The translations under genes were made by a program, and so were the position numbers. The notes beneath the pieces are model-generated. The model did no database searches. It had not been told where the DNA came from and worked only from the letters and a program-made list of their open reading frames with translations. 60,551 nucleotides of DNA from Bdellovibrionota bacterium (GTDB taxonomy: Bacteria; Bdellovibrionota; Bdellovibrionia; Bdellovibrionales; UBA840), in contig JAYZXX010000046.1 in assembly GCA_036140815.1 (NCBI GenBank), positions 1 to 60,551 on the forward strand. The letters run 5' to 3'. This document shows, piece after piece, positions 6,901 through 12,511 of the stretch. Positions within the stretch are counted from its first letter, which is position 1. Each line of letters begins with the position of its first letter.

Positions 6901-9275
6901 TAAAGCTTCTTCGCTACAAGTTTGATGCAAAGAATATTTCAAGTACTGATCCTGTATTGCAAAAAAATTGGGAAGACTTGAGCTTTGATGAACGCGACCA
7001 TGTTAAAAAAATGATGTTTAACTATTACGTGCAGAGAATTAACGCCGTTGCCGATGCGAATGGCATAGCTCCTGTAATGGCATTGTCTAATATTGTGAAT
7101 GAATTTTATAGACAGTTGATTAGTAATTCAGACTTGCGTAGTGAAAGAACCATTACAACAGTTCTTATTGAAAGAATTTTGAGTGAAAAGTACGGAACAC
7201 CCTTAAATTTAGAAACTCTTCCGGAAAATGATCCGTTGAAAATTGTAAGTTCTCATCGTTTTTTAGATTTGATATTTAAGTCTAATCATGACGCCGACAT
7301 AGAAATTATTGAACAAATTAAAAAGACACGACTTGGTCAAACGAAGAAGGACCCTGCTTTATTGGTACCTTCTTCGATTATTTTGGTAGGACCAACGGGA
7401 ACTGGGAAGACAAGTCTTTGGTTAGCAATTCAAAAGGCGGTAGATAACAAAATCTATAATTTTGACAAAGACAATAACACGGAGGCGAGAGCTTTCTTTA
7501 TAAATTTGGAGAAAGTAATTCCTGATTATGGACCAAATACAAAAGCCTCAGACAGAGGCTCCAGTTTAACAATTACCGAATTAATAAAACATTTAGACAC
7601 CTTTTTAACCGGGCCTAATGGAGCAAGGGGAGATATTCTACTTGATGATGTAAGTAAAGCACATCCAAAAGTTTTAGGTAAACTTTTAGCTAAGCTTTAT
7701 GAAATTTTAGATGCTGAAGATGGTATCTATTATGCGAGAAGAAATGGACAGGTAGTGGAAGTGCCTGTGGGAAATTTGAATATAACCCTAACATTAAATC
7801 CTACAGAGAAGGAGTCGAAGCTTTCCGAGTATAGTAAGGCCCCTAAGGATATGACAATTCAAGAGTTAATTGTGGCAACATTAAATAGTGATGAGTTTTC
7901 TTTCGATAAATCACATTTGGCACGATTTTCCAGAATCATTGAGATCGATAAATTTTCGGAAAATGCAAAGCTCCCTGGAATGATTAGAGATCTAAAGTCT
8001 TCCATCGAGTCAGATTTTACGTCGCAAAACCGTCTGAGCCTTTTTACCAATGACTTTGTTTCAAGTATTGTTGAGTATTTCTCTGATATGGATGCTAGAA
8101 CATTTAAGTCCAGAGCAGTTCAAACGGCGATGGAAATCACTCAAAATGTTAATGGCCCATTAAAGATACTTGCTCCTTCAAAGGAGCAGAAGATGGAGAT
8201 GTTGCAACGAAGAGTTAAACTTGGCGGTGGTACAGTAGATATTGATAATTTCATGCAAAATTATACTCAGGTCTTAAAAATCGGAGAAAGTCAGGAAGCT
8301 AATTTCCGCTTACTTCAGGTAATGATTGATAGCTATCGTGTAATGATTTTTGACCAACTTTACAAGAAGACACTTTTGAACTTTTCTGGAGTGGGGGAGC
8401 ATTTCGCGCAGGAGATTGGCCAGCAAATCTTGTTGGCACTGGGGGAACATTTGGCTGAGAAGCCTCAAATTCCTTTGAGTGCTGTGCGACTGGACCCTTC
8501 ATTTTATGGTTTAAAACACGCAGATGACATAGAAAGCTTTTATCGCTTATTAGGTAGTATTGATGGACAGAGAAACAGTTCCGATAAATTTTATCCCTCA
8601 CCTGATTTCTTTAGGACGGAAGACCGCGATGATTTGTCTGTGTTAATTGGTGAAAAGAAGTCTAGCGGTGACAATAAAGAAGCCAATGTTTTTAGAGGCT
8701 TGAGTTCGGCACTTCGGCCACACCTTCAATCTTTACTTGAAAAAATGGTTTATCAAAATACCAGTTCCGATGCCAGTCTAGAGACTTGGCTAGAACGAAT
8801 TGATGAAGAAGCAGAGAGACGAATTGCCGTAAATAATACAGCTGAGGAGTTGCGATTGTTTTCTGATGTTGTATTTCAAGAACTTAGCTTGATGGTGCGA
8901 AAATTAATGAAGGTAGATATAGACTCTCGTAAATCTTACTCTGTCTATGAGCAGACAAGAATCTTTTTGTTTGTAATGGATAAAACAATCGCAGGACTAA
9001 ATTGGGATAAATATCTTGGCTTTAAGTTGGCAATATTAGAACAGTTTTCAAGTAATATGGTTGTAGGTTCTAGAGCCTCCGTTCAAGAGTATTTGTTCAA
9101 AAATCGTTTTTCTCTCTTATGGCCTAGGGCTCATAGTTCTTTGTTAAATTTAATGGAGAACTCTGAGTTGATTAAGGATCTTAATGTTGATTTTGACAAG
9201 AAAAGCTCTACTCGCTCTAGTCAGTTCTATAATAAATGTAGATTTTCCGCAGTTCCTAAGCAAGGGGGCCAGTAA
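3993..9275 (+). CDS. Giant (~1760 aa) hypothetical protein: signal-like N-terminus, ~1100 aa of unrecognised sequence, then a Clp-D2-like AAA+ ATPase module
   Basis: GGAGGA RBS 4 nt upstream of the ATG at 3993; the track start at 3981 is a TTG inside the T-run. N-terminus is 'MPRIILYIVFILDLSISVFA|NK'. Walker A 'LVGPTGTGKTS' (about nt 7389-7415). Walker B/sensor region 'ILLDDVSKAHPKVLGKLL', resembling ClpA/B D2 'LLDEIEKAHPDVFNILLQ'. Its stop overlaps the next start (TAATG). Confidence 0.7.
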   Translation: MPRIILYIVFILDLSISVFANKEYPVSYNGATPYMLVVADDSQNSELSPGLYRLEDSINKPKLALEGDILINPIEGVLLGRLDTVHEKNRRYEAVVVIDGKVTIISRYTDASSPESFLQIGTGENEVLDQLNKSFVRLPPVLKHSDIVVMKTEIEGGYLISMKGLMEDGYTFFFKIGLSESSDSKIYFEQRPILLDNKFYNNYELNNRLIKEGFISDRLVRYLSFPEHEDAKRVLDHKSMIVTNYQNHENNWDGQTGIPRIDLRSLKIADLPPLKVSLGDNLLQIVDIERNKAEIVAMMNPKVPLKSAWVDTEGESESPYVRAVNELKAEVFFAEKVLHFYYNGQIAEISSLSPELPLDLSASFVYKSGTSIYLIISQKFETSESTSLVEISLPVDSSVGKLQYLMSLKISPYFYSSEELSYRHFDEKYFDILSKSENEKDRVVWEQDLDYTKPLFDLVKSVKNGKVEKKYLKPIEEIVITPSLTYKVFQEEGVASENRVSGIYNGESLLVQGQLVEVNIGDEKLLSISKNTNFYDPVVDKIEERQATIFFVDKSFRGGQKSVEVNLVVPGVGQKHYRLGEIDGFPESKFHSASVVLPLVKDDKAAYLLLATEIDEKQQAEVLSFKFGIDADESVPLPKTFKVFNYMEKSIDSRLRFEKSGAPYLLEDSQASARNIKLIDLAEPESRIFPNRSQYKHLSFTGVSSGSDASAWENPWLITNPNHDESFAFLKKSSSEKYKSQLFDNFFQQLEAIAKGETPEKHHIFIVPDALQTYLFHSILANWKDSKNFLSMSNRKLLLNVINGSTVTSQNALMDLYKTLDKEKTKGNTSIILGQWSEVHSMGRLKVDQGDNSFELSYVSDDFSEEEGERDILKNEGNESHVVSKNPHSLYLMATEGEKLALQDFPKAKSTNKNSLVILATESEINEFKNESFEANYGLLEHFEIHQLPRPSLEHQSKLFERLFEEKPDLKLLRYKFDAKNISSTDPVLQKNWEDLSFDERDHVKKMMFNYYVQRINAVADANGIAPVMALSNIVNEFYRQLISNSDLRSERTITTVLIERILSEKYGTPLNLETLPENDPLKIVSSHRFLDLIFKSNHDADIEIIEQIKKTRLGQTKKDPALLVPSSIILVGPTGTGKTSLWLAIQKAVDNKIYNFDKDNNTEARAFFINLEKVIPDYGPNTKASDRGSSLTITELIKHLDTFLTGPNGARGDILLDDVSKAHPKVLGKLLAKLYEILDAEDGIYYARRNGQVVEVPVGNLNITLTLNPTEKESKLSEYSKAPKDMTIQELIVATLNSDEFSFDKSHLARFSRIIEIDKFSENAKLPGMIRDLKSSIESDFTSQNRLSLFTNDFVSSIVEYFSDMDARTFKSRAVQTAMEITQNVNGPLKILAPSKEQKMEMLQRRVKLGGGTVDIDNFMQNYTQVLKIGESQEANFRLLQVMIDSYRVMIFDQLYKKTLLNFSGVGEHFAQEIGQQILLALGEHLAEKPQIPLSAVRLDPSFYGLKHADDIESFYRLLGSIDGQRNSSDKFYPSPDFFRTEDRDDLSVLIGEKKSSGDNKEANVFRGLSSALRPHLQSLLEKMVYQNTSSDASLETWLERIDEEAERRIAVNNTAEELRLFSDVVFQELSLMVRKLMKVDIDSRKSYSVYEQTRIFLFVMDKTIAGLNWDKYLGFKLAILEQFSSNMVVGSRASVQEYLFKNRFSLLWPRAHSSLLNLMENSELIKDLNVDFDKKSSTRSSQFYNKCRFSAVPKQGGQ

Positions 9276-12200: not shown

Positions 12201-12511
12201 AAGGTGTCGGAAAAAGTATAGAAATATTGGAAGAATATCCAATGTCAAAATTCAATCGCTATGCTTATGTTTTTGGAGATAGTGGACAGCATTATACCCC
12301 TGAAGTTGCAAAAGCTTTTGAAAAAATAGTCGATATGACAGATGCCTCAGGTTATATAAAAACGGGAACGATGGGAGTTGATGCATTCGACCAAGGAATT
12401 GAAAATCTATTCCAAAGTAAAAAGAAGAAATTTTCAAAGTCTGAATGGACGGAAAAGGGGGGAACTTTGGTCGATTCAATCATAGATTTGTTTAAAGAGC
12501 CAGAGGAGTAG
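9275..12511 (+). CDS. Fusion protein: SpoVR/YcgB-like N-terminal domain plus DUF444/YeaH-like (vWA-type) C-terminal domain, with signal-like N-terminus
   Basis: SpoVR landmarks: 'LSIFAHVLGHNH', 'LKPWQHEMLRIFEQ', 'MNEGFATFSMF', 'NPYWLGLEAW'. DUF444 landmarks: a Gly/Glu/Lys tract 'GEGKGEGEGEGQGKGKGKGEGE..GPGGAGGS' followed by 'EFVEVPWKDWIELINDKLKLRNI', then the vWA/MIDAS-like 'AVIVIAVDFSISMKG..', 'VIIRYVVFDTEAKEV' and 'GGGGTSYEKG'. N-terminus is 'MKLFLFLFLFTAFELLA|AE'. Confidence 0.8.
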   Translation: MKLFLFLFLFTAFELLAAEPSNKVTGIKKQECASSAVPVSKRGRLYWVDHHRDVDEMAKIKEAAEEFTDIAHKLNFNIPKHVATFASSQELALLLANGAHPAPHAIDGSLVFKATRESSSVYEFVTSGCPLCHSYFQDTTPWIQQLSIFAHVLGHNHVSQTSTYGKIRKPEDAARSAFEMVELMNQLKYHQNISWEEISLFYQKIYSMKIDQDLVVGSYDSVDSLIKALDKKRTEDEKFSGSSSMLQSMTALSKTKLKPWQHEMLRIFEQREAWQGFATMTKTMNEGFATFSMFIIPKHSKYNEMRHWIDYSSLLAKVLGTKEKVNPASAVNNPYWLGLEAWMNLYNKFKKNHKEKYETEFDLDAAFVSYASKIIETHSDASFLRLALDQQWLIDKKLIMTRELKEDDPRYDASIKQDPDDKLILVVSNDPRRLINKIARQVGNRGDKMPRLRFIEDSHAGKYILLRQDLVQNHGIPLEIFSATKKIYDLASTYKTSVAVDTAIPSYYIAEKLDAQTKAEIKDIQKNAKWFPKDGEVHKLNEPMLIPVRIIVSPDRKVEVKYWSTNDSLDKELEGFRETLMSSVESYYEDSILGLSEKYQGVIDSDLRQKFGAATQGAVSNTAAILPTAPSASLAVAEYLRFVEERTVLALKRAMNGQGTGVATSKGMQVRVFPEIAFFGLDQRYAQIRREAYKKAIVDGEGVADPYADAFTDLVSFDAWPGKILRIPAKKQGEGKGEGEGEGQGKGKGKGEGEPKEGEESEEGEGPGGAGGSNPEFVEVPWKDWIELINDKLKLRNIRKTLGRSRQVATRRGGSVTLNRDPLREDRVVEKAMGYGLAGLEFEWQQRFDSEERFSKMTEEEKIIFMDKEIDKLSYQEIVEVGLRYMPEGEYVAKSSVEVMQPEFDAVIVIAVDFSISMKGDPLQRAKTVAINLKEKIKSEYNNVIIRYVVFDTEAKEVTEKQAWSVTGGGGTSYEKGVGKSIEILEEYPMSKFNRYAYVFGDSGQHYTPEVAKAFEKIVDMTDASGYIKTGTMGVDAFDQGIENLFQSKKKKFSKSEWTEKGGTLVDSIIDLFKEPEE

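What the first reader, a model, noticed from the sequence alone, without database searches (positions are those of the whole stretch)
9275..12511. SpoVR and DUF444/YeaH fused in one polypeptide, in reversed order relative to the usual gene order
The N-terminal ~640 aa carry the SpoVR landmarks ('AHVLGHNH', 'PWQHEMLRIFE', 'MNEGFATF', 'NPYWLGLEAW'). The C-terminal ~400 aa carry DUF444 landmarks: a Gly-rich acidic tract, then 'FVEVPWKDWIELINDKLKLRNI', then the vWA-like 'VIAVDFSISMKG'. Fusion of two proteins that are normally separate is strong Rosetta-stone evidence that SpoVR and YeaH act as a physical complex. That has only been inferred from synteny. The Gly/Glu/Lys tract (about nt 11470-11590) sits exactly at the junction and looks like a flexible linker.
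Basis: partly seen in the sequence, partly recalled or inferred. Interest (0 to 1): 0.65.

Follow-up and report, generated by a model that had tools for sequence, protein, structure and literature searches.

The report
Exported SpoVR–YeaH fusion protein operon
Two proteins that are normally separate partners of the enigmatic PrkA stress/sporulation ATPase are joined into one chain here, and this chain and its two ATPase neighbours all carry export signals, which suggests that marine predatory bacteria (Bdellovibrionota) run a copy of this machine outside their own cytoplasm.

Summary
Window 9275..12511 (+) is one uninterrupted 1078-aa ORF with Pfam SpoVR (59.5 bits) and DUF444/YeaH (74.6 bits), both above the cut-off of 27. 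Four independent seawater assemblies show no indels. Marine metatranscriptomes cover both halves.

It is not a one-off. An exhaustive profile search found at least 114 full-length fusion representatives at the 50% identity level. They form one clade in both halves. They keep every residue that is invariant in 78 canonical SpoVR and 78 canonical DUF444 proteins (E123, H151, H155, E286; MIDAS D913, S915, S917, T972, D1002). Canonical loci run DUF444→SpoVR (75 of 79), so the fused order is reversed.

One correction: the Gly/Glu/Lys tract is an intrinsic DUF444 feature, not the fusion linker. The real connector is a structured, family-specific segment of about 170 aa (residues 507-680).

New findings:
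- The gene ends a conserved operon: PrkA-like ATPase, then a giant orphan AAA+ protein (about 1760 aa), then the fusion.
- All three products carry Sec-type signal peptides. Canonical proteins do not (0 of 79 and 1 of 78).
- All taxon-labelled members are Bdellovibrionota.

Verdict: a real, unreported variant of the PrkA–YeaH–SpoVR module. Its mechanism is inferred, not shown.

The parts
1459..3921 (+). PrkA-like AAA+ protein, 820 aa, first gene of the operon. It has an N-terminal Sec-type signal peptide (MFKLLFIQSFIGLALSFLLLKPILA|ADD), Walker A GPHGSGKS (aa 158-165) and Walker B LDEV (aa 355-358).
   Evidence: Pfam PrkA C-terminal domain 38.5 bits and AAA_PrkA 29.1 bits, both cut-offs 25. Best PDB sequence hit is 9xip 'Serine protein kinase', E 7.6e-4. 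The ATPase motifs are invariant across 4 homologues at 22% identity. Signal-like N-terminus. SD GAGGG lies 5 nt before the ATG.
3957..3977 (+). G+C-rich hairpin (9 pairs) plus a T-run, between the prkA-like stop and the start of the giant gene. The T-run runs into the SD GGAGG of the next gene. It may be a partial terminator or attenuator.
   Evidence: Terminator-like scan; sequence. Function is inferred only.
3993..9275 (+). Giant orphan protein (about 1760 aa from ATG 3993; the mechanical ORF starts at TTG 3981). It has a signal peptide (MPRIILYIVFILDLSISVFA|NKE), a single Clp-like AAA+ module (Walker A GPTGTGKT aa 1137-1144, Walker B DD aa 1222-1223, in ORF numbering from 3981) and an invariant Cys1753.
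   Evidence: ORF. Pfam AAA_5 26.8 bits, cut-off 22. Weak ClpA D2 similarity. Homologous giants sit in L083, L084, L001, L085 and L087, always between the PrkA-like gene and the fusion. It is not a PrkA paralogue: hhalign matches only the P-loop. SD GGAGG lies 6 nt before ATG 3993.
9273..9277 (+). TAATG overlap of the giant gene's stop with the fusion gene's start (translational coupling). SD-like GGGGG lies upstream.
   Evidence: Sequence.
9275..12511 (+). SpoVR::DUF444 (YeaH) fusion gene, 1078 aa.
9275..9328 (+). Predicted Sec signal peptide of the fusion (MKLFLFLFLFTAFELLAA|EP). The nearly invariant Cys32 follows at nt 9368-9370.
   Evidence: 103 of 114 family members have a hydrophobic N-terminus. 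The N-flank has net charge +1.37 and the next 15 aa -0.85; 99 have a small-x-small site; 101 have a Cys within 45 aa. Canonical SpoVR 0 of 79 and DUF444 1 of 78 by the same test. AF2 pLDDT is below 50 for aa 16-40.
9443..10792 (+). SpoVR-homologous module (aa 57-506), equal to the whole of a canonical SpoVR. It has invariant E123, H151-V-x-G-H155 (nt 9725-9739), N285-E286-G287-x-A289 (nt 10127-10141), and Y335/G338 in NPYWLG.
   Evidence: Mapping of 79 canonical SpoVR onto fusion coordinates. The residues are invariant in 115 fusions and in 78 of 78 canonical SpoVR. AF2 pLDDT is mostly above 90.
10793..11314 (+). Family-specific structured bridge (aa 507-680) with no counterpart in canonical SpoVR or DUF444. 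This is the real connector between the two modules.
   Evidence: No canonical protein aligns here. AF2 predicts helices and strands with pLDDT about 60-90. An RNA contig spans 10132-11250.
11315..12499 (+). DUF444/YeaH-homologous module (aa ~681-1075). Its C-terminal part is a vWA domain with a complete MIDAS: D913-x-S915-x-S917 (nt 12011-12025), T972, D1002.
   Evidence: Pfam. Mapping of 78 canonical DUF444. The MIDAS residues are invariant in the fusions and in 78 of 78 canonical proteins. Foldseek matches vWA domains, e.g. 1sht E 7.3e-5, TM(target) 0.67.
11471..11587 (+). Gly/Glu/Lys low-complexity tract (aa 733-771), disordered. It is an intrinsic DUF444 feature, not the fusion linker, and it varies between strains by in-frame 6-nt units.
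   Evidence: Alignment with 8 canonical DUF444 shows the same G-rich acidic tract between the 'IKVPI' strand and the 'E(A)EV..EL...L..EL.LPNL' helix. pLDDT is below 50 for aa 733-771. Tandem 6/12/18/24-nt periodicity. +GGTAAA and +GAAGGG in relatives.
12539..12567 (+). Strong terminator-like hairpin (11 pairs) plus a T-run, 28 nt after the fusion's stop codon: the end of the operon.

Best explanation
The ORF encodes a genuine single-chain SpoVR–YeaH(DUF444) protein. It is the last gene of a conserved, translationally coupled three-gene operon: a PrkA-like AAA+ protein, then a giant orphan AAA+ protein, then the SpoVR::YeaH fusion. This operon is a deeply divergent paralogue of the widespread cytoplasmic prkA–yeaH–spoVR (E. 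coli yeaG–yeaH–ycgB) module. So far it is labelled only in Bdellovibrionota.

Shown here:
- Both halves keep every universally invariant residue of their families.
- The two halves are joined by a structured ~170-aa bridge.
- AlphaFold2 predicts them to pack into one compact body.
- The fusion arose once.
- All three operon products start with Sec-type signal peptides, whereas canonical proteins do not.

Inferred:
- The machine works like an AAA+/vWA pair (MoxR–vWA logic).
- The MIDAS face of the YeaH half docks an acidic residue of the ATPase or of a client.
- The rigidly attached SpoVR half carries a zincin-like H-x3-H…E metal site that lacks the catalytic Glu. It binds or processes the client while the ATPases supply mechanical work.
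- SpoVR and YeaH of canonical systems form the same complex non-covalently.
- The module acts outside the producer's cytoplasm, either in its periplasm/envelope or, given the ATP requirement, after delivery into prey.
For: Fusion real.

Family size and conservation:
- 178 representatives at E<=1e-30, of which at least 114 are full length.
- Invariant E123, H151, H155, E286, G287, Y335, G338, D913, S917 and D1002 in 115 fusions.
- The same residues in 78 of 78 canonical SpoVR and DUF444.

Single origin: NJ trees give a perfect fusion/canonical bipartition in both halves, 191 of 191 and 190 of 190 tips.

Compact fold: pLDDT 84.9, pTM 0.81 for 1078 aa. Only aa 16-31, 33-40 and 733-771 are below 50.

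vWA fold.

Operon conservation: window, L081, L083, L084, L085 and L087; partial in L001, L086 and L088. TAATG coupling. Terminator after the fusion.

PrkA-like identity.

ATPase motifs invariant in the PrkA-like and giant proteins.

Signal peptides.

Taxon labels: Bdellovibrionaceae/Pseudobdellovibrionaceae/Bdellovibrionota, Bacteriovoracaceae, Halobacteriovoraceae.

Functional linkage of the canonical trio: cofitness r > 0.7 in six bacteria. Canonical operon order PrkA→DUF444→SpoVR.
Against: - No experiment bears on this family.
- Signal peptides were judged by hydrophobicity, charge and small-x-small rules of my own, not by a trained predictor.
- Two AAA+ ATPases with intact Walker motifs make little sense in an ATP-free periplasm.
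- Only four taxon labels exist for more than 114 clusters.
- No PAE was available, so domain packing rests on pTM alone.
- The SpoVR half has no significant structural match in the PDB (best E 0.14). Only weak zincin-fold hits appear at E~7, and there are no recurrent weak Pfam peptidase hits.
- The position of the zincin catalytic Glu is an invariant Val, so hydrolytic activity is doubtful.
- PrkA biochemistry itself is disputed: kinase, protease or neither.
- The fusion clade is only about 20% identical to canonical proteins, so its geometry may not transfer to them.
Confidence: 0.55

Rival explanations
1. The N-terminal hydrophobic segments are uncleaved membrane anchors. They hold the three proteins on the cytoplasmic face of the inner membrane, so the module is a membrane-tethered but still cytoplasmic, ATP-supplied version of PrkA–YeaH–SpoVR.
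For: Both ATPases keep invariant Walker A/B motifs and so presumably need ATP. There are no other TM segments. In 16 of 110 members the C-flank is more positive than the N-flank.
Against: The positive-inside rule points the other way in most members: N-flank +1.37, C-flank -0.85, and N>C in 81 of 110. The uncharged run has a median of 18 aa including a small-x-small site in 99 members, which is typical of cleavable Sec signals and short for an anchor. The same pattern appears in all three protein families in distant loci.
Confidence: 0.2
2. The fusion is a lineage-specific accident involving a promiscuous vWA domain. It says nothing about a SpoVR–YeaH complex in canonical systems.
For: vWA domains are fused to many partners. 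The fusion clade is only about 20% identical to canonical proteins and has its own bridge domain and an extra giant partner.
Against: The vWA here is specifically the DUF444 type, including its N-terminal region and G-rich tract. Both halves keep all family-invariant residues. A PrkA-like gene is still in the operon. The fusion has been kept across at least 114 clusters down to about 22% identity. Canonical genes are adjacent in 75 of 79 loci and cofit.
Confidence: 0.15
3. The operon is an anti-phage or inter-bacterial conflict system carried on a mobile element (NTPase + vWA + effector logic).
For: A tyrosine integrase lies just upstream of the module in L083 and L084, and a signal-peptide-bearing AAA+/M41 peptidase lies downstream. 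The PrkA-like protein gives a weak bpMoxR Pfam hit. The family evolves fast.
Against: No PADLOC family is matched by any of the proteins. In the window the flanks are housekeeping genes and base composition is even across the operon. No integrase is present in the window, L081 or L085.
Confidence: 0.1
4. The single ORF is an assembly or sequencing artefact: two genes joined by a lost stop codon or a frameshift.
For: The low-complexity repeat tract at 11471-11587 is the kind of place where assemblers err.
Against: Four independent assemblies agree without indels. RNA contigs cover both halves. At least 114 divergent homologues have the same architecture. Canonical gene order is the reverse, so loss of a stop codon could not produce this protein.
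Confidence: 0.01

Closest known systems
Canonical PrkA–YeaH–SpoVR module (E. coli YeaG–YeaH–YcgB; B. subtilis PrkA–YhbH, SpoVR; B. bacteriovorus bd0228-0231)
   Same: The same three protein families sit in one operon. The same invariant residues are present in the SpoVR and DUF444 parts. PrkA C-terminal and AAA_PrkA domains are detectable in the first gene.
   Different: SpoVR and DUF444 are fused, in reversed order, through a new ~170-aa bridge. A giant AAA+ protein of about 1760-2170 aa is inserted between prkA and the fusion. All products carry signal peptides. Sequences are only about 20% identical to canonical ones and form a separate clade.
MoxR-type AAA+ / vWA pairs (RavA–ViaA, NorQ–NorD, CbbQ–CbbO). 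From my own knowledge, also the DUF2201_N (putative metallopeptidase) + DUF2201 (vWA-like) proteins encoded next to MoxR ATPases.
   Same: An AAA+ ATPase is encoded next to a MIDAS-containing vWA protein. The order, an N-terminal H-x3-H domain followed by a C-terminal vWA, matches the DUF2201 architecture. The PrkA-like protein gives weak AAA_5/bpMoxR hits, and the DUF444 half gives a sub-threshold DUF2201 hit (E 0.057).
   Different: The ATPase is PrkA-like and carries the PrkA C-terminal domain. It was not shown to be of the MoxR clade. There is no significant Pfam match of the SpoVR half to any peptidase family. Homology between SpoVR and DUF2201_N was not demonstrated.
Mg-chelatase BchI/BchD/BchH (own knowledge)
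   Same: An AAA+ motor works with a partner in which an acidic low-complexity tract precedes a MIDAS vWA domain, as in DUF444.
   Different: There is no sequence relationship beyond the vWA and AAA+ folds. The third component is different (porphyrin-binding BchH against SpoVR).
Zincin / gluzincin metallopeptidases (HExxH … E, with the third ligand in an NEGFA-like helix as in family M1; own knowledge)
   Same: There is an H-x3-H on a helix that follows two β-strands, and an invariant NEGxA Glu on a later helix. The only compact weak fold hits are zincins: MMP-8/9, Wss1, a YbeY-like protein and M61.
   Different: The catalytic Glu position is an invariant Val. The spacing to the NEG Glu is about 130 aa rather than about 18. 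The fold matches are not significant (E~7).

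Membership tests
SpoVR (PF04293) | Pfam model score above the gathering threshold | tested here: met
   59.5 bits against 27. All 17 N-halves tested match, best E 1.1e-26.
SpoVR (PF04293) | Family-invariant residues (E, H-V-x-G-H, N-E-G-x-A, NPY..G) | tested here: met
   E123, H151, V152, H155, N285, E286, G287, A289, Y335 and G338 are identical in 78 of 78 canonical SpoVR. E123, H151, H155, E286, G287, Y335 and G338 are invariant, and V152, N285 and A289 are at least 90% conserved, in 115 fusions.
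DUF444 / YeaH / YhbH (PF04285) | Pfam model score above the gathering threshold, covering most of the model | tested here: met
   74.6 bits against 27; profile positions 64-402 of 418.
DUF444 / YeaH / YhbH (PF04285) | vWA fold with a complete MIDAS (DxSxS…T…D), preceded by a G-rich acidic tract | tested here: met
   D913, S915, S917, T972 and D1002. Foldseek matches vWA domains. The tract aligns with that of canonical proteins.
Canonical PrkA–YeaH–SpoVR operon | Three separate genes in the order prkA, yeaH, spoVR | tested here: not met
   The genes are fused and reversed, and a giant gene is inserted. The canonical order occurs in 75 of 79 loci, with PrkA directly upstream of DUF444 in at least 41.
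Canonical PrkA–YeaH–SpoVR operon | Cytoplasmic proteins without signal peptides | tested here: not met
   Signal-like N-termini occur on all three products and on 103 of 114 fusions, against 0 of 79 and 1 of 78 canonical proteins. This is rule-based, not a trained predictor.
Canonical PrkA–YeaH–SpoVR operon | A PrkA-family ATPase encoded with them | tested here: met
   PF06798 38.5 bits and PF08298 29.1 bits, cut-offs 25.
MoxR AAA+/vWA systems | ATPase belongs to the MoxR clade of AAA+ | tested here: inconclusive
   AAA_5 scores 24.5 bits (cut-off 22) over aa 314-406 only, overlapping the stronger AAA_PrkA and Sigma54_activat matches, so clade membership is not shown. bpMoxR scores 17 bits (cut-off 27).
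Zincin metallopeptidases | HExxH motif with a catalytic Glu | tested here: not met
   The motif is H-V-L-G-H. Val152 is identical in 78 of 78 canonical SpoVR and at least 90% conserved in the fusions.
Zincin metallopeptidases | Zincin fold | tested here: inconclusive
   The N-half model (pLDDT 84.5) gives no PDB match with E < 0.1. Zincins appear only at E~7 with TM(target) 0.41-0.47.
Known anti-phage defence systems (PADLOC) | Match to a defence-system protein model | tested here: not met
   The fusion has no hit. The others have only generic P-loop hits.

The most novel reading that the evidence does not exclude
The operon encodes an ATP-dependent protein-remodelling machine (PrkA-like AAA+, giant AAA+, single-chain SpoVR–vWA adaptor/effector). 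It is exported by Sec from a predatory bacterium and works where ATP is available outside the predator, that is, inside the prey cell. It would be the first extracytoplasmic AAA+/vWA system and would give a direct biochemical handle on what the PrkA–YeaH–SpoVR module does.
Probability: 0.2. Interest if true: 0.85.

Novelty: new variant of a known kind. Interest (0 to 1): 0.62.

Why it matters
PrkA–YeaH–SpoVR is one of the most widespread bacterial gene trios whose biochemical function is still unknown. It is linked to sporulation and cortex formation, the RpoS/NtrC starvation responses and the Bdellovibrio attack phase.

- **Complex formation.** A large, old family in which SpoVR and YeaH are one chain gives a concrete, testable model of how the two proteins sit together: MIDAS vWA next to the H-x3-H…E site.
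- **Mutagenesis targets.** The shared invariant residues say which positions to mutate.
- **Structural work.** The fusion offers a naturally stabilised construct.
- **Export.** The predicted export of two AAA+ ATPases together with the fusion, in predatory bacteria, is unexpected. If confirmed, it would point to an ATP-driven activity in the envelope or in prey.

Tried and rejected
- **Word-indexed homologue search.** It gave only 7 fusions and 3 giants. That suggested rarity, but the exhaustive profile search overturned it.
- **L057.** It looked like a canonical locus with SpoVR→DUF444 order, but this was an artefact of a long stop-free ORF in a high-GC genome.
- **Giant protein as a PrkA duplicate.** Rejected, because hhalign matches only the P-loop. 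The PDB profile search gives only ClpX/ClpA P-loop-level hits.
- **Defence system.** No PADLOC match.
- **SpoVR fold identification.**
  - Foldseek with the full model returned only vWA hits.
  - A separate N-half model gave no significant PDB match.
  - A permissive Pfam scan of 17 N-halves showed no recurrent peptidase family.
- **Rfam.** Nothing in the window.
- **Taxon labels.** Twenty cluster look-ups gave only one further label.
- **Literature.** Searches for a described SpoVR–DUF444 fusion, an exported PrkA module, or SpoVR as a metallopeptidase found nothing.
- **Structure prediction.** The 70-sequence alignment was used instead.

Full report
**1. The observation.**
Window 9275..12511 (+) is a single 1078-aa ORF. 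Pfam finds DUF444/YeaH (PF04285, E 1.1e-20, 74.6 bits, aa 732-1059, profile 64-402 of 418). It also finds SpoVR (PF04293, E 3.3e-16, 59.5 bits). Both are above the gathering score of 27. NCBIfam gives sub-threshold hits to YhbH/PRK05325 and SpoVR/PRK11767 equivalogs, as expected for a divergent member.

The ORF is not an assembly artefact. Contigs from four independent seawater metagenomes cover 9000-12600 with substitutions only. cDNA contigs from three marine metatranscriptomes (two studies) of a 90-97% identical relative cover 9704-12483. Their only length differences are two in-frame 6-nt insertions in the Gly-rich tract. The window's own protein is already in NCBI. Its 90% cluster-mates are annotated 'hypothetical protein [Bdellovibrionaceae / Pseudobdellovibrionaceae bacterium]' or 'SpoVR family protein, partial [Bdellovibrionota bacterium]'.

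**2. How common the fusion is.**
The word-indexed search found only seven relatives, all with both Pfam domains. The exhaustive HMM search of 1.84 billion 50%-identity representatives found 178 proteins at E<=1e-30. Of these, 114 are full length (>=940 aa) and match the profile from end to end.

In an alignment of 115 fusions, the invariant columns are E123, H151, H155, E286, G287, Y335 and G338 in the SpoVR half. In the DUF444 half they are D913, S917 and D1002, with T972 nearly invariant. I mapped 78 canonical SpoVR and 78 canonical DUF444 proteins, taken from loci of GTDB species representatives, onto the same columns. The same residues are identical in 78 of 78: E123, H151, V152, H155, N285, E286, G287, A289, Y335, G338, and D913, S915, S917, G970, G971, T972, D1002.

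Neighbour-joining trees of each half separate all 114 fusions from all canonical proteins in one bipartition (191 of 191 and 190 of 190 tips). Mean identities are F-F 0.28-0.31, C-C 0.41-0.42 and F-C 0.20-0.21. This indicates one fusion event followed by long or fast divergence. One caveat is that the alignment is guided by a fusion-derived HMM and uses simple distances.

**3. Gene order and the real junction.**
Among 79 canonical loci, DUF444 lies immediately upstream of SpoVR on the same strand in 74. The one apparent reverse case, L057, was an ORF artefact, which makes 75. PrkA lies directly upstream of DUF444 in at least 41 loci. The fused order SpoVR→DUF444 is therefore reversed, and simple loss of a stop codon cannot produce it.

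An HMM whose positions equal window residues places canonical SpoVR at aa 57-506, with only about 18 canonical residues left over. It places canonical DUF444 at aa ~680/721-1075. The segment aa 507-680 has no counterpart in either family. It is predicted as ordered helices and strands.

The Gly/Glu/Lys tract (aa 733-771, nt 11471-11587) is disordered in the model (pLDDT below 50). It is not the fusion linker. Eight canonical DUF444 proteins from Bacillota, Myxococcota, Bdellovibrionales, Acidobacteriota and Gammaproteobacteria carry a G-rich acidic tract at the same position. It sits between an 'IKVPI' strand and the 'E(A)EV..EL...L..EL.LPNL' helix. The tract is a 6/12/24-nt repeat that changes length in frame between strains.

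**4. Structure.**
AlphaFold2 with a 70-sequence alignment gives mean pLDDT 84.9 and pTM 0.81 for the whole 1078 aa. A pTM that high for a two-module chain implies a defined mutual arrangement. This is my inference, because no PAE was returned.

Foldseek against the PDB matches only the C-terminal vWA domain: ANTXR2/CMG2 1sht at E 7.3e-5 and TM(target) 0.67, plus complement C2a/factor B, Rpn10 and TFIIH p44.

A separate model of aa 41-700 (pLDDT 84.5, pTM 0.84) has no significant PDB match (best E 0.14). The only compact weak matches are zincin-fold proteins at E~7: MMP-9 6esm, MMP-8 1jap, Wss1 5xbv, the YbeY-like 1oz9 and M61 7xyo.

Several features resemble a gluzincin:
- Strands 123-126 and 131-137 precede helix 142-161, which carries H151-x3-H155.
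- A later helix, 282-295, carries the invariant NEGxA Glu.

The catalytic-Glu position, however, is an invariant Val, and no Pfam peptidase family recurs among weak hits. I therefore treat 'zincin-like metal site' as a lead, not a result. No SpoVR or YeaH structure is in the PDB by sequence. A PrkA-like 'Serine protein kinase' is (9xip).

**5. Context.**
The fusion's ATG overlaps the stop of the upstream gene (TAATG). A strong terminator-like hairpin follows at 12539-12567.

The upstream gene encodes a giant protein of about 1760 aa. Its likely start is ATG 3993, 6 nt after a GGAGG. It has a single AAA+ module: Pfam AAA_5 at 26.8 bits and weak ClpA-D2 similarity.

Upstream of that, 1459..3921 encodes an 820-aa PrkA-like protein: PrkA C-terminal domain 38.5 bits and AAA_PrkA 29.1 bits, both cut-offs 25.

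The same order, PrkA-like → giant (1512-2169 aa) → fusion, is found at every related locus with enough flank:
- L081, a 94% relative from Tara.
- L083 and L084.
- L085 and L087.
- Truncated at contig ends in L001, L086 and L088.

The giants are homologous to one another, with invariant Walker A/B motifs and an invariant Cys near the C-terminus. They are not PrkA paralogues. The PrkA-likes keep their Walker A/B motifs at 22% identity.

L083 and L084 add a fourth gene downstream, a 1264-1273-aa AAA+/Peptidase_M41 protein. They also have a tyrosine integrase upstream. PADLOC recognises none of these proteins.

**6. Signal peptides.**
All three window proteins, and their homologues in L083 and L084, begin with a short basic n-region, a hydrophobic core and a small-x-small site, and have no other hydrophobic segment.

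Across the 114 full-length fusions:
- 103 have a strongly hydrophobic 10-mer near the N-terminus; most exceptions look like truncated gene calls.
- 110 have an uncharged hydrophobic run starting at about residue 4, with a median length of 18 aa.
- The N-flank has net charge +1.37 and the following 15 aa have -0.85.
- 99 have a small-x-small site.
- 101 have a Cys within 45 aa (Cys32 here).

By the same hydrophobicity test, canonical SpoVR scores 0 of 79 and canonical DUF444 1 of 78. This is the pattern of cleavable Sec signals, and by the positive-inside rule the proteins would be exported. It is a rule-based inference. The obvious difficulty is that two intact AAA+ ATPases would lack ATP in the periplasm.

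**7. Organisms.**
The labelled carriers are the window cluster (Bdellovibrionaceae/Pseudobdellovibrionaceae/Bdellovibrionota), L001 (Bacteriovoracaceae MAG) and P0060 (Halobacteriovoraceae). One further record says only 'bacterium'. All other members are unlabelled metagenome proteins.

Bdellovibrionales also have the canonical operon (e.g. L005 and L016). In B. bacteriovorus HD100, bd0228-0231 belongs to the attack-phase core genes (PMC5430801). The fused module is thus a second, paralogous system.

**8. Mechanism (inferred).**
By analogy with AAA+/vWA pairs, the MIDAS of the YeaH half would bind an acidic side chain of the ATPase or of a client. The rigidly attached SpoVR half would present its conserved H-x3-H…E site to that client. 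The PrkA-like and giant ATPases would supply the work.

For canonical systems, the fusion argues that SpoVR and YeaH form a complex. Until now this rested on operon structure, cofitness (r > 0.7 in six bacteria, bioRxiv 10.1101/072470) and co-evolution predictions (PMC2686479). PrkA's own activity remains disputed (PMC9512850 against PMC13001217).

Where the exported module gets ATP is unexplained. Delivery into prey is the most interesting reading and membrane tethering is the most conservative.

**9. Novelty and score.**
The sequences are in public databases, but each is annotated for only one half ('SpoVR family protein' or 'YeaH/YhbH (DUF444 family)'). I found no paper describing the fusion, the giant partner or the signal peptides. 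I could not query InterPro architectures.

I rate it a new variant of a known kind, with interest 0.62. The fusion itself is solid and useful. The export and predation reading is surprising but unproven.

Noticed in passing
window 21699..23837 (-): A single 712-aa ORF carries both COX1 (CcoN, aa 15-445) and FixO (CcoO, aa 487-701). The cbb3 oxidase subunits N and O are therefore fused in one polypeptide. FixG-like, DsbD_2 and P-type ATPase genes lie nearby.
   Followed up: no
window 43196..51175 (+): A 2659-aa ORF has no Pfam match at E<=1e-5. It lies in the part of the window with the highest G+C, 0.42-0.445 against 0.36-0.40 elsewhere.
   Followed up: no
L083:13630-17424 and L084:13360-17181: Directly downstream of the fusion in two distant loci lies a 1264-1273-aa protein with AAA+ and Peptidase_M41 (FtsH-like) domains. 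It has no internal TM segments, and in L084 it has a clear signal peptide. It is absent from the window.
   Followed up: partly
L083:1-495 and L084:217-750: A tyrosine recombinase (Phage_integrase) gene lies just upstream of the PrkA-like gene in two distant loci. This hints that the module can be mobile. It is not present in the window, L081 or L085.
   Followed up: partly
window 9368..9370 (Cys32 of the fusion), 1549..1551 (Cys31 of the PrkA-like protein), ~9237..9239 (Cys1753 of the giant protein): Each of the three proteins has one conserved Cys. In the fusion and the PrkA-like protein it lies shortly after the signal peptide, often as C-x-x-x-L. In the giant protein it lies near the C-terminus. 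These could form intermolecular disulfides in an oxidising compartment. In a few family members the Cys directly follows the hydrophobic core and looks like a lipobox (F-A-C).
   Followed up: partly
window 3957..3977 (+): A hairpin plus T-run sits between the PrkA-like and giant genes. The SD of the giant gene lies in the tail. It may act as an attenuator that sets the ratio of PrkA-like protein to the two downstream proteins.
   Followed up: no
window 11471..11587: The Gly/Glu/Lys tract is a 6/12/24-nt tandem repeat. It differs between close strains by in-frame 6-nt insertions, +GGTAAA after 11518 and +GAAGGG after 11566.
   Followed up: yes
window 12673..13950 (-) and 16349..17620 (+): A Csd3-like M23 peptidoglycan endopeptidase is encoded convergently just after the operon; this is conserved in the close relatives L081 and L082 only. 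A PIF1-like helicase lies further downstream.
   Followed up: no
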